In this document: piece after piece, positions 26,883 to 29,800 of the stretch | Numbering within the stretch: the stretch's first letter is position 1 | How the letters are laid out: every line of letters starts with the position of its first letter | NCBI RefSeq assembly: GCF_048403405.1 | Contig: NZ_CP183129.1 | DNA from: Escherichia coli | GTDB taxonomy: Bacteria > Pseudomonadota > Gammaproteobacteria > Enterobacterales > Enterobacteriaceae | Direction: 5' to 3' (one strand) | Length of the DNA: 64,000 nt | Position numbers: made by a program

Positions 26883-29800
26883 TGATGAGGGACGTATTTG
26901 TATTAGTCGCGACTTGATCTGACACATGGCCTTGAAAGGTTGAGAGTTACCGGTTTTGATATGAGTGTCGAATCCTTATCCAAAACAAGAGGTAACTCTC
27001 ATGCTTCATACTGCCAATCCCGTCATCAAACACAAAGCCGGTTTGCTCAATCTGGCTGAAGAACTCAGCAACGTATCAAAAGCCTGTAAAATCATGGGCG
27101 TTTCGCGTGAAACGTTTTATCGTTACCGCGAACTGGCCGCTGAAGGCGGTGTGGATGCGCAGATTAATCGTAGTCGCCGCGCTCCTAACCTTAAGAACCG
27201 TACCGATGAGGCAACTGAACAGGCTGTTGTTGATTACACCGTCGCTTTCCCGACACATGGTCAGCACCGGGCCAGCAACGAGCTGCGTAAACAGGGGGTT
27301 TTTATCTCCGACAGTGGTGTCCGTTCTGTCTGGTTACTCCATAACCTTGAGAATCTCAAAAGACGATACTGAACAAATTTTATCAGGTGACGTTCCGTAA
27401 AAAGTTGTATGGAGTTCTCGATGCAGTCGGCGCGACTATCAGTACCCCCGCTGAACCCTGGACTATCGGGCCGCCGTACTGGGGCATGTCACCCTGGCGT
27501 GCCGCTGGTTTTCCGCTAATGGTTTATTTCCTCTTTCTTTCCCGGCGAGAATTTATTTTAATCCGGAAGGATTATTTATTTTCAGATAGGGACTCACATT
27601 AAACACGAAACATTTTAATTAATGCATGGCTGAATATGTATTACACAATGTCAGATATCGTAAAAGACCAGTGCAATTCTATGTAAACTCTCTGACTGTT
27701 CATTTTATTTGTTGTTTCAGGGTCGGAACTCACCCTCAATAAACAACTGAATACGAGTAGATATTCATCGTCTGAGCTATATGGCTTTACACAATAGCCG
27801 ACATGTCTTTTCTCAGTCAGGGATTTTACTTTTCCTCACTACGAAGTTGACGACTTCGATATGGGATAGACTCTTAATTCAAGCAATTACTCTGCACAAG
27901 CATCAGGCAATCCAGCTCCAATATTTGTTATAAAATAATGCGCAACATTAATTTCACCAACAAAAAAAAGGTTTACGCTATCCCCTTGCCCTGGTATTTT
28001 ACCATATTTACACCACACTTCTTTTGTATCTGGATCATTCTCTGATACGATTTTCGCCACTTGTTCCCTGGCCCTCACCGTCAATGTTTTCTTAAACCTC
28101 CCCCCATCATCGATTGTTAGGGAAAAATAAGAAAAAAAATAATCATCTTCTACATTTGTGGATATTGATATATCCACCGCTACATGCGGAAAAAAATCTG
28201 GGAGCCATGTAAAAACCCCATCACTTTCTGGTATTGCCATATAGTTTATGTAATGCTTACTTACAAGAGATTCATCTTTGTGTAAATAAAGATAAGTAGT
28301 CACGCATAAAAAAACAACGATTATAATAGCAAAAATAAATATTACCATCTTTGAGATGTTACTTGAGATAGCCAGCATCTTGTAAAGCCTTTATCGTTTT
28401 TTTATGCTCTGGATTAATATAATTAATACATCTATTTGAGCAATCTTGTGTTAATGGACATGTCAACCCATGTTCATTTACAGCCAAGTCTTTTTTATTA
28501 TCTTCAATCATCTCAGAATGGGATAACTTTACTTTTCTGCCGTACATACCGAACATATTTAACCCGTAATCTCTAATCTCTTTTTCATAACCCAGCCCTT
28601 TCGCTGATCGGCTAACACCAGCGTCATTTAATTTAGACACTCGACAAAATGCCATACAATGGAAAAATTGATCAGTCCCACCTAAATTTAATCTCTTCAT
28701 ATCATCATAAGTATCAGATAATATATCCCATGCTCTTTGATGGTTTAGTTGTTCTTTTTTTCGCATTAACGCTACATCTGCAGGACTTAACCCTAATGGA
28801 TCAATACCATTCACCGGATTCAGCGGATACGCATACAGACTCCATCCCCCCGCCAGCCCAATCGGGTCCTGAGTAATATATCGTCCCAGCAACGGATTGT
28901 AGTACCGGTTCCGGTTATAATACAGCCCTGACTCCTCATCGTGTTGCTGCCCTGGCAGACGGTACGGCTGGTGCAGGTGATGCGGGTTTTCCTCATTCAG
29001 CAGGTTTCCCCACTCATCATACTCCCCGCTCCACGCCGTATTGCCGTCTTCGCTGATGAGCGCCAGCGGCAGCCCCCGGTGGTCACAGTGATAAAGATGA
29101 ATTTTTCGCTCAGGTAAATAAACCGGCTCTATCTGTGTCGCCAGCCGCTCCACCGTCAGCCCGCACTGTGCCAGCCACTGGCGGCTTTCACTGCTCACGC
29201 GGTCTGCCCGGATTTCCCCCTCCAGCCTGTCCAGCAGCCGCACCAGTTCAGCCGGGAACACCACGCCGTGTCCGTCCTCGCTCCCTTCCTGCTGGAGCTT
29301 CTCCGCCAGGCTCCGCCGCTGCGTTTTCTCCCGCTCGCCGTTGTCTGTTTCGATGCGGATGAGCGGTGTGAAGCTTCCCGGCTCGTATACCGTCTGGATA
29401 CGTGTGCTGTCGGTCTGCACCGTCGTCAGGTGGTCGCCGTCCCAGCCGTACCACGTCACCTCCGGTTTACGCGACAGCGACATCCACCCCGTCAGGTCAC
29501 GCTCCCGCCGCCATACCCGTTTCGCCATTCGCCGTCCCAGCGGGTCGTAGAGGTAGCGGCTCTCGACCAGTGGCTCGCCATGCTGTATCCGCGTGTAGAA
29601 CTCCAGGCGGTGCTGGCTGTCGTAGTGGTAGTGGTGGGTCCGCTCGTCGTCCGTCCGTATCACACCCGCCGGGATGCGGTCCGTCTTCTCCGTCAGCCTG
29701 CCGTATTCATCGTGGCGGTAGACATAGTGCGCATCCTCCGCGATGCGGTTATCCGGCCACGCCGTGAGTGTACTGTCCGGGTGCAGCTCCGGGTCCTGCA

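What the first reader, a model, noticed from the sequence alone, without database searches (positions are those of the whole stretch)
26940..27372. IS-like transposase HTH fragment (ylbG) preceded by a ~60-nt imperfect hairpin
The 123-aa ORF has only the HTH part of an IS3/IS481-type transposase and no DDE domain, so it is a relic. Immediately upstream, GAGAGTTACC (26942-26951) and GGTAACTCTC (26991-27000) form a 10-bp perfect inverted repeat with further complementary bases inside. The second arm overlaps the RBS, which could sequester it. This may be a former IS end or a regulatory hairpin.
Basis: seen in the sequence. Interest (0 to 1): 0.3.

Follow-up and report, generated by a model that had tools for sequence, protein, structure and literature searches.

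The report
Dead IS481 element with leader hairpin
ylbG is the decaying front end of a dead ISSod13-type (IS481-family) insertion sequence, and the hairpin before it is that element's conserved leader stem-loop covering the ribosome-binding site, so the finding is real but ordinary.

Summary
A 123-codon ORF (ATG 27001, stop 27372) follows an 11-bp perfect inverted repeat (26941-26951 / 26991-27001) that folds into a roughly 60-nt hairpin.

The region 26899-27425 is a remnant of an ISSod13-like IS481-family insertion sequence.
- The left terminal repeat, leader and transposase codons 1-122 are 95% identical to intact 1201-bp copies.
- 463 bp are deleted, which removes the DDE core.
- A 69-bp C-terminal scrap follows.
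- The remnant then abuts a 96-nt Rhs N-terminal fragment (ylbI). There is no right end.

The ORF evolves neutrally. I counted 11 nonsynonymous and 2 synonymous lineage-specific changes (omega about 1.7), against 0.02-0.09 between most intact copies. It is not a domesticated regulator.

The hairpin is not the IS end, which lies 43 nt upstream. It is a conserved part of the element's leader.
- In 59 distinct leaders from gamma- and beta-proteobacteria, 94.5% of pair cells are paired.
- Seven pairs show compensatory changes, against 1.5 expected.
- The hairpin occludes the Shine-Dalgarno GG, the spacer and the A of the AUG.

It most likely limits transposase translation, as in IS200 and IS10. An antisense RNA from the same palindrome is possible, because the Rfam family psRNA2 matches the opposite strand below threshold. 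Interest is low.

The parts
26899..26924 (+). Left terminal inverted repeat (IRL) of an ISSod13-like IS481-family insertion sequence. This is the true IS end.
   Evidence: It aligns from nucleotide 1 of intact 1201-bp copies. Intact copies are bounded by TGTATTAG...CTAATACA with 7-bp target duplications. It is the only such repeat in the window, and no right-end copy exists.
26932..26937 (+). TTGAAA, a conserved -35-like box just inside the IRL. TTTGAT (26955-26960), 17 bp downstream, would serve as a poor -10. This is a candidate transposase promoter (inferred).
   Evidence: TTG is invariant and the hexamer is nearly invariant in 59 leaders, with variants including TTGACA. The consensus promoter scan finds nothing here, so this is inference only.
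26941..27001 (+). Conserved leader stem-loop. The outer helix pairs 26941-26951 with 26991-27001, and the inner helix pairs 26953-26958 with 26981-26986. It covers the Shine-Dalgarno GG, the spacer and the A of the AUG.
   Evidence: The fold is -24.9 kcal/mol, z = -3.9. RNAalifold predicts the same helices. 94.5% of pair cells are paired, and 7 pairs carry compensatory changes against 1.5 in shuffles, 0 of 500 shuffles reaching the observed value.
26987..26992 (+). Shine-Dalgarno sequence AAGAGG, ending 8 nt before the ATG.
   Evidence: Read from the sequence. AGG is conserved at this place in the family alignment.
27001..27372 (+). ylbG ORF. It consists of transposase codons 1-122 (HTH domains only), then one junction codon and a stop.
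   Evidence: 90% amino-acid identity to residues 1-122 of an intact 346-aa transposase. It matches HTH_29 and has no rve match. It matches the N-terminal part of the NCBIfam IS481 profile only. MG1655 annotates it as b0502.
27357..27365 (+). Internal deletion junction. IS nucleotides 468-930, which encode the DDE core (codons about 123-276), are missing. The two alignments overlap by 9 nt here.
   Evidence: blastn of the window against the intact IS gives 26899-27365 = IS 1-467 and 27357-27425 = IS 931-999.
27357..27425 (+). Out-of-frame scrap of the transposase C-terminal region (about codons 277-299, ...FYQVTFRKKLYG...).
   Evidence: 81-86% nucleotide identity to IS 931-999 of several copies. 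tblastn also matches residues 277-307.
27425..27520 (-). Rhs protein N-terminal fragment (ylbI). IS homology stops here, and the IS right end is absent.
   Evidence: The minus-strand translation [32 protein letters not shown] matches the N-terminus of the window's full Rhs gene, [32 protein letters not shown]. MG1655 annotates a 96-nt pseudogene ylbI b4632 at this place.

Best explanation
**What it is (shown).** Window 26899-27425 is a dead, truncated copy of an ISSod13-like IS481-family insertion sequence. It sits at the mnmH-proximal edge of the RhsD island.
- It keeps the left terminal repeat, the 102-nt leader and transposase codons 1-122. These codons are what K-12 calls ylbG.
- It has lost 463 bp that encode the DDE core and about 200 bp of the right end.
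- The ORF has drifted neutrally since then.

**The hairpin (shown).** It is a native, conserved element of this IS group's leader, and its base pairing is maintained by compensatory substitutions.

**How it works (inferred).**
- In any transcript that carries both arms, the stem-loop buries the Shine-Dalgarno GG, the spacer and the first base of the AUG. This raises the cost of opening the ribosome docking site by roughly 5-10 kcal/mol and keeps transposase translation low.
- TTGAAA lies just upstream of the 5' arm. If it is the -35 of the element's own promoter, native transcripts would start inside the loop and escape the hairpin. Only read-through transcripts from outside would then be silenced, which is IS10-style fold-back inhibition.
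- At this locus, read-through from mnmH (which ends 13 nt before the IS) would be silenced, so YlbG is probably hardly made.
- The same palindrome may also specify an antisense RNA, as in IS200. That would be an additional layer, not a contradiction.
For: **Relic identity**
- 95.3% DNA identity of 26899-27365 to nucleotides 1-467 of an intact 1201-bp copy (L003), and 81% identity of 27357-27425 to nucleotides 931-999.
- The intact transposase passes the NCBIfam IS481 cut-off (292.6 bits against 224) and has rve domains at residues 162-326.
- Sources name the closest clusters 'IS481-like element ISSod13 family transposase'.
- The IS ends are defined by 7-bp target duplications.
- The window has no right repeat. 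An Rhs fragment starts where IS homology stops.

**Neutral decay**
- 11 nonsynonymous and 2 synonymous ylbG-specific codon changes, giving omega about 1.7.
- P = 1e-5 if omega were 0.1, whereas most intact-copy pairs give 0.02-0.09 (one close pair 0.23).
- Among six E. coli alleles there are 5 nonsynonymous changes, 1 synonymous change, and one frameshift with an IS3 truncation.

**Hairpin**
- Stability z = -3.9.
- RNAalifold recovers it from 59 distinct leaders.
- 98.8% of cells are paired in the outer helix, and 7 pairs show double changes against 1.5 expected, 0 of 500 shuffles. All slid-partner controls are far lower.
- Examples: GAGCGTTACC/GGTAACGCTC, GAAAGTTACC/GGTAACTTTC, GAGGGTTACC/AGTAACCCTC, GGTTTAG/CTAAACC.
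- Loop length varies from 39 to about 52 nt while the pairing is kept.
- Opening 26985-27015 costs 11-16 kcal/mol when the 5' arm is in the transcript, and 5-7 kcal/mol when it is not.

**Precedent**
- The IS200 leader stem-loop sequesters the Shine-Dalgarno sequence and blocks 30S binding, alongside the antisense RNA art200. IS10 RNA-OUT is a second example (PMC4513863).
Against: - No transcript, start-site or translation data for this element were found in the literature searches that bear on it.
- The consensus scan finds no sigma-70 promoter in the leader on either strand, in the window or in intact copies.
- The proposed -10 (TTTGAT) lacks the key A at position 2.
- Pair counts cannot tell which strand's RNA folds. 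In the two main helices there are about 5 G-U cells and 10 A-C cells, and both strands fold equally well.
- The outer helix is almost invariant in sequence, more than pairing alone requires. Its 5' core is repeated at the right end of the IS, so a DNA-level constraint such as a transposase binding site also acts here and could explain part of the conservation.
Confidence: 0.7

Rival explanations
1. The palindrome mainly encodes a small antisense RNA, like IS10 RNA-OUT or IS200 art200. It would be transcribed outward from a promoter hidden in transposase codons 3-12, start at the base of the hairpin (about 27000, minus strand), and pair with the transposase translation start in cis and in trans. 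This could coexist with the cis hairpin.
For: - Rfam psRNA2 (RF02349) matches the minus strand at 26827-26998 over its full length (30.9 bits, E = 2e-5), starting at the hairpin base.
- The same placement recurs in the intact E. coli copy (43.3 bits) and in 17 of 20 other loci tested (37-54 bits).
- The model consensus is the reverse complement of an IS left end plus this hairpin.
- The minus strand folds at -21.4 kcal/mol, z = -4.0.
- Synonymous positions of codons 3-5 and 10-12 are at least 80-90% conserved, although dS across the family is saturated. Their reverse complement reads TTGTGT-16 nt-TAGTAT, which would place a start site at the hairpin base.
Against: - Every psRNA2 hit is below the gathering score of 65, and I could not find the paper behind that family to learn whether its strand was determined by experiment.
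- The candidate promoter matches only 7 of 12 consensus positions and is not reported by the scan.
- In the window the -10 is weakened to CAGTAT.
- No terminator follows the hairpin on the minus strand.
Confidence: 0.3
2. The conservation reflects a DNA-level role. The arms would be transposase (or host protein) binding sites, or a cruciform, used in transposition or in transcriptional autorepression, and RNA folding would be incidental.
For: - GTTACC(C/G)GTTT occurs just inside both ends of intact copies, at about nucleotide 47 on the left and about nucleotide 27 inward on the right, directly after the shared CTGACA.
- GTTACC/GGTAAC is almost invariant in 59 leaders: four of its six pairs never vary and two break in 2-3 sequences.
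- The motif lies between the -35-like and -10-like boxes, where a bound protein would repress transcription.
Against: - Compensatory changes occur in the GAGA/TCTC part and in the inner helix, outside the shared motif.
- Inner-helix variants on the left are not mirrored at the right end, for example in L068.
- The distance between the arms varies from 39 to about 52 nt, which fits RNA pairing better than a dimer of fixed geometry.
- The 3' arm always sits exactly on the ribosome-binding site.
Confidence: 0.2
3. YlbG is a domesticated HTH protein, either a regulator or an inhibitor of incoming ISSod13-like elements, and the hairpin now controls its expression.
For: - The ORF is still open in 5 of 6 sampled E. 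coli lineages plus the window.
- The region is present at 99% identity or more in about 2,900 of 5,426 complete genomes.
- MG1655 labels it 'putative DNA-binding transcriptional regulator'.
- From general knowledge, truncated transposases such as IS1 InsA and Tn5 Inh can act as inhibitors.
Against: - Omega is about 1.7 on the ylbG branch, and changes hit residues that are invariant in the family (D37E, L54Q, T91A, G104D, R113L, F119L).
- Polymorphism within the species is mostly nonsynonymous, and one strain has a frameshift with an IS3 truncation.
- PGAP flags it as an incomplete pseudogene.
- The ybbD-ylbG intergenic region next to it is used as a landing pad for reporter libraries.
Confidence: 0.05
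4. The inverted repeat is a chance repeat, or it is the intrinsic terminator of mnmH.
For: - About 3.8 perfect 10-bp inverted repeats per 64 kb are expected by chance.
- The repeat lies 56 nt downstream of the mnmH stop codon.
Against: - It is conserved with covariation in elements from dozens of genera that are unrelated to mnmH.
- It belongs to the IS, which begins at 26899.
- No T-run follows it on either strand, and the terminator scan does not report it.
Confidence: 0.02

Closest known systems
ISSod13 (IS481 family) and its close relatives in Enterobacterales
   Same: - The left terminal repeat, leader and first 122 codons are 95% identical in DNA to intact 1201-bp E. coli copies.
- The intact transposase is 86% identical to clusters named ISSod13 and passes the NCBIfam IS481 model.
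   Different: This copy lacks the DDE core, the C-terminus and the right end, so it cannot transpose. I could not query ISfinder, so the exact ISfinder name of the E. coli element is unknown.
IS200 leader stem-loop plus art200 antisense RNA (PMC4513863)
   Same: [quoted passage not shown]
- An RNA antisense to the same region is possible.
- Both are layers that keep transposase translation low.
   Different: - The IS family is unrelated (IS200 has a Y1 HUH transposase) and there is no sequence similarity.
- For the present element, neither translation repression nor the antisense RNA has been shown.
- IS200 also has a separate terminator hairpin at its end, which is not seen here.
IS10/Tn10 fold-back inhibition and RNA-OUT (Davis, Simons and Kleckner 1985 and Simons and Kleckner 1983, cited from memory; RNA-OUT as summarised in PMC4513863)
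   Same: - The layout is the same: an end-proximal sequence upstream of the presumed native start pairs with the ribosome-binding site, so transcripts entering from outside would be translationally silent.
- The hairpin sits where an outward antisense RNA would begin.
   Different: - The IS family is different (IS4).
- Here the native start site is unknown, so the defining asymmetry between native and read-through transcripts is only inferred.
Rfam psRNA2 (RF02349)
   Same: The model consensus contains the same hairpin followed by the reverse complement of an IS481-type left end. It hits the same position in the window and in the other copies tested.
   Different: - All hits are below the gathering score (30.9-54.3 bits against 65), so these are not family members by Rfam's rule.
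- The family is annotated as an sRNA gene on the strand opposite to the transposase.
- The model runs past the IS end into unrelated flanking DNA.

Membership tests
IS481-family insertion sequence (functional element) | Transposase with an N-terminal HTH and a DDE (rve) core that reaches the NCBIfam transpos_IS481 cut-off | tested here: not met
   ylbG scores 88.3 bits against a cut-off of 224, matches profile positions 2-112 of 284 only, and has no rve match. The intact relative L003 scores 292.6 bits and has rve and rve_3.
IS481-family insertion sequence (functional element) | Two terminal inverted repeats | tested here: not met
   Only the left repeat is present (26899-26924). No second copy is found on either strand, even with 3 mismatches allowed.
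IS481-family insertion sequence (functional element) | Target-site duplication flanking the element | not testable with these tools
   The right end is deleted. Intact relatives show 7-bp duplications.
Relic of an ISSod13-like IS481 element | Collinear DNA homology starting exactly at the IS tip | tested here: met
   26899-27365 aligns to IS nucleotides 1-467 at 95.3%, and 27357-27425 aligns to IS nucleotides 931-999 at 81%.
Shine-Dalgarno-sequestering leader stem-loops of IS transposase mRNAs (IS200 type) | A stable stem-loop that includes the Shine-Dalgarno or start-codon region | tested here: met
   The fold is -24.9 kcal/mol, z = -3.9. The 3' arm 26991-27001 covers the Shine-Dalgarno GG, the spacer and the A of the AUG. 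The opening cost is about 5-10 kcal/mol higher when the 5' arm is present.
Shine-Dalgarno-sequestering leader stem-loops of IS transposase mRNAs (IS200 type) | Pairing maintained in evolution | tested here: met
   94.5% of cells are paired, and 7 pairs have compensatory changes against 1.5 expected, 0 of 500 shuffles reaching the observed value. Slid-partner controls give 30-55% paired. RNAalifold agrees.
Shine-Dalgarno-sequestering leader stem-loops of IS transposase mRNAs (IS200 type) | The stem-loop lowers 30S binding and translation | not testable with these tools
   This needs toeprinting or reporter fusions.
IS10-type fold-back inhibition | The native transcript starts between the two arms, so only read-through transcripts fold | tested here: inconclusive
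   A conserved TTGAAA lies 4 nt upstream of the 5' arm and would place a start site in the loop. However, no consensus promoter is detected and the -10 is poor.
Rfam psRNA2 / cis-antisense RNA regulators (RNA-OUT, art200) | Score at or above the Rfam gathering threshold | tested here: not met
   30.9 bits in the window and 37-54 bits in relatives, against 65.
Rfam psRNA2 / cis-antisense RNA regulators (RNA-OUT, art200) | An outward promoter and a detectable antisense transcript | tested here: inconclusive
   Conserved synonymous sites spell TTGTGT-16 nt-TAGTAT on the minus strand, but this is a weak match that the scan does not detect. No transcript data are available.
Domesticated HTH regulator or truncated-transposase inhibitor | Purifying selection on the retained ORF | tested here: not met
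   Omega is about 1.7 (11 nonsynonymous, 2 synonymous), with P = 1e-5 under omega = 0.1. Among E. coli alleles there are 5 nonsynonymous changes, 1 synonymous change and 1 frameshift.

The most novel reading that the evidence does not exclude
The relic may not be inert. Its hairpin arms are identical to those of active ISSod13-like copies. It could therefore still produce an RNA-OUT-like antisense RNA, or a low level of the HTH-only protein. Either could act in trans on incoming ISSod13-like elements, giving the roughly half of E. coli strains that carry ylbG a built-in brake on that IS. More broadly, Rfam psRNA2 would then be the antisense regulator of a large IS481 subgroup rather than a free-standing sRNA gene.
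Probability: 0.07. Interest if true: 0.5.

Novelty: new member of a known kind. Interest (0 to 1): 0.2.

Why it matters
- **Annotation.** The MG1655 label 'putative DNA-binding transcriptional regulator YlbG' should read 'IS481-family (ISSod13-like) transposase N-terminal remnant', with ylbI as the adjoining Rhs scrap.
- **IS biology.** It documents a conserved, covarying leader stem-loop over the ribosome-binding site in a very widespread IS481 subgroup. This adds that subgroup to the list of elements (IS10, IS50, IS200) that guard transposase translation with RNA structure.
- **Rfam.** It suggests that psRNA2 is built on an IS end.

None of this changes a major picture.

Tried and rejected
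- **First family scans.** My first Pfam and NCBIfam scans of the ORF used a start one base off (27002) and returned nothing. I repeated them in the correct frame.
- **71-aa ORF at 27387-27602.** It matches no family. It is spurious: a transposase C-terminal scrap running into the antisense of an Rhs fragment.
- **Promoter scans.** Scans of the window and of two intact copies found nothing usable in the leader.
- **Strand of the folded RNA.** Counting G-U against A-C cells to decide which strand folds was inconclusive.
- **Unpaired probability.** Mean unpaired probability of the ribosome-binding site did not discriminate between transcripts. Opening energy did.
- **Literature.**
  - 'ylbG' gave only incidental mentions.
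  - 'psRNA2' and variant spellings did not reveal the source of the Rfam family.
  - 'ISSod13' and 'IS481 family + antisense RNA' gave nothing on regulation.
  - The Thomason dRNA-seq paper and the Mahillon and Chandler review are not held.
- **Terminator and chance readings.** Both were rejected.
- **Second IS as source of the 3' scrap.** I asked whether the 81%-identical 3' scrap came from a different IS481 element. The best matches among 80 relatives reach only 86-89% over 54-69 nt, so this cannot be decided.
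Full report
**Context.** The window carries the E. coli region allR-allA-allS-mnmH(selU), followed by ylbG and an Rhs gene. In MG1655 the ORF is b0502, annotated 'putative DNA-binding transcriptional regulator YlbG'. A 96-nt pseudogene, ylbI (b4632), lies next to it. NCBI's PGAP pipeline instead marks ylbG as an incomplete HTH-domain pseudogene in every other genome I fetched.

**Observation.**
- The perfect repeat is 11 bp (26941-26951 / 26991-27001).
- An inner helix pairs GTTTTG 26953-26958 with CAAAAC 26981-26986.
- The RNA folds at -24.9 kcal/mol, z = -3.9.
- The ORF starts at ATG 27001, eight nucleotides after AAGAGG, and ends with the stop at 27372.
- A 10-bp perfect inverted repeat is not rare by itself. 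About 3.8 are expected per 64 kb and 16 are present. The case for function rests on the comparative evidence below.

**What the ORF is.** YlbG matches only the first 112 of 284 positions of the NCBIfam IS481 transposase profile (E = 6e-25, below the cut-off because it is truncated). It also matches Pfam HTH_29, and it has no integrase-core match.

Megablast against complete E. coli genomes found full-length relatives. One of them, L003:1501-2701, is an intact 1201-bp element.
- It has a 346-aa transposase that passes the IS481 cut-off and contains rve domains.
- It has 26-27-bp imperfect terminal repeats (TGTATTAG...).
- It has a 7-bp target duplication. The same ends and 7-bp duplications recur in other genera.
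- Protein clusters 86% identical to it are named 'IS481-like element ISSod13 family transposase'.

**Anatomy of the relic.**
- Window 26899-27365 equals IS nucleotides 1-467 at 95.3% identity.
- IS nucleotides 468-930 are deleted. These encode codons about 123-276, the DDE core.
- Window 27357-27425 equals IS nucleotides 931-999 at 81% identity, out of frame. This is why the ORF stops two codons after the junction.
- IS homology then stops. The minus strand of 27425-27520 encodes [32 protein letters not shown], the N-terminus of an Rhs protein, which is ylbI.
- No right terminal repeat exists anywhere in the window.
- The relic lies at the edge of a 6.1-kb island (26888-32983) that also holds the Rhs gene. 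In strain WCHEC025943 this island is replaced by about 700 bp containing a dinQ-like gene, between mnmH and ybbP.

**Is YlbG under selection?** I polarised changes against five close intact copies.
- The ylbG lineage carries 11 nonsynonymous and 2 synonymous codon changes. Several hit residues that are invariant in the family.
- Omega is about 1.7. This is compatible with 1 (P = 0.38) and incompatible with 0.1 (P = 1e-5).
- Between most pairs of intact copies omega is 0.02-0.09; the closest pair (L003 and L007) gives 0.23.
- Six E. coli alleles differ from the window by five nonsynonymous changes and one synonymous change. One strain has a frameshift plus an IS3 insertion.
- The ORF is therefore open in most strains but is drifting. 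The sample of strains is small.

**What the hairpin is.** It lies at IS nucleotides 43-103, inside the leader, and not at the IS tip. I fetched 80 related loci from species-representative genomes, with 78-97% amino-acid identity. They come from gamma- and beta-proteobacteria, plus two bins labelled Bacteroidetes. I aligned the 59 distinct leaders.
- RNAalifold predicts the same two helices.
- For my 20-pair structure, 94.5% of cells pair, and 98.8% pair in the outer helix.
- Seven pairs carry compensatory double changes, against 1.5 in shuffles (0 of 500 shuffles reach the observed value).
- Sliding the 3' partners drops pairing to 30-55%.
- The loop varies from 39 to about 52 nt.
- The 3' arm always ends at the start codon.
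- Opening 26985-27015 is predicted to cost 11-16 kcal/mol when the 5' arm is in the transcript, and 5-7 kcal/mol when it is not.

**Mechanism.** Everything in this section is inferred. The simplest reading is a translational brake on the transposase, as shown experimentally for the IS200 leader stem-loop (PMC4513863).

A nearly invariant TTGAAA sits 4 nt before the 5' arm. If it is the -35 box, native transcripts start in the loop and escape. Only transcripts entering from outside would then be silenced, as in IS10 fold-back inhibition (cited from memory). The -10 is poor, and no scan supports a promoter.

At this locus mnmH ends 13 nt before the IS. Read-through RNA should therefore carry the full hairpin.

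**A second layer?** Rfam psRNA2 matches the opposite strand over its full length, starting at the hairpin base.
- It matches in the window (30.9 bits), in the intact E. coli copy (43.3 bits), and in 17 of 20 other loci tested (37-54 bits). All are below the gathering score of 65.
- Its consensus reads as a hairpin followed by the reverse complement of an IS481-type left end.
- Synonymous sites of codons 3-5 and 10-12 are unusually conserved. On the minus strand they spell TTGTGT-16 nt-TAGTAT, which would place a start at the hairpin base.
- The minus strand folds as well as the plus strand.
- This suggests an antisense RNA like RNA-OUT or art200, but it is not shown. I could not trace the origin of psRNA2.

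**A DNA-level constraint.** GTTACC(C/G)GTTT, the core of the 5' arm plus the inner helix, also lies just inside the right end of intact copies. The terminal repeats are therefore effectively longer, and are interrupted on the left by the segment that holds TTGAAA. This probably explains why GTTACC hardly varies.

**Verdict.** The finding is a real but ordinary IS relic. Its hairpin is a conserved regulatory element of the parent IS family. It is a new example of a known kind and is of low general interest.

Noticed in passing
window 26827-26998 (-); L003 1412-1600 (-); 17 further loci, e.g. L068 816-999 (-): Rfam psRNA2 (RF02349, 'Proteobacterial sRNA') consistently matches, below threshold, the reverse complement of the IS left end plus the leader hairpin. 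The family looks as if it was built on the end of a related IS481-family element and runs into flanking DNA.
   Followed up: partly
window 27425-27520 (-): A 96-nt N-terminal fragment of an Rhs protein (28 of 32 residues identical to the start of the full Rhs gene at 28359-32561) abuts the IS relic. It corresponds to the K-12 pseudogene ylbI. The mechanical 71-aa ORF at 27387-27602 (+) is an artefact that spans it.
   Followed up: yes
window 26888-32983; L092 2389-3091: The Rhs gene and the IS relic form a 6.1-kb island between mnmH and ybbP. In strain WCHEC025943 the same site holds about 700 bp with a gene annotated as the type I toxin DinQ.
   Followed up: partly
L003 2633-2701 and the right ends of L007-L085: Intact copies have a second conserved hairpin (CTGACAG...CTGTCAG) immediately after the transposase stop codon, inside the right end. 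The motif GTTACC(C/G)GTTT is shared by both ends. This part is absent from the window.
   Followed up: partly
L007-L086: This IS is very widespread and very conserved, at 78-97% amino-acid identity. It occurs in Enterobacterales, Vibrio, Shewanella, Alteromonas, Acinetobacter and Moraxella, in beta-proteobacteria, and in two metagenomic bins labelled Bacteroidetes. This implies frequent recent horizontal spread, or contamination of the bins.
   Followed up: no
transposase codons 300-345 of intact copies (e.g. L003 2500-2640): Synonymous-site diversity is lower near the 3' end of the transposase gene (entropy about 0.9-1.0 against a mean of 1.3). This hints at an overlapping constraint close to the right end.
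   Followed up: no
L090 1616-3187 (E. coli TH9F11): In this strain ylbG carries a 1-bp deletion and is cut off by an IS3 insertion at about window position 27345. This shows that the relic is dispensable.
   Followed up: yes
window 27887-28378 (-): A 163-aa ORF overlaps the 3' end of the Rhs gene by 20 nt, in the position usually occupied by an Rhs immunity gene. It differs from the K-12 arrangement (ybbC, ylbH, ybbD).
   Followed up: no
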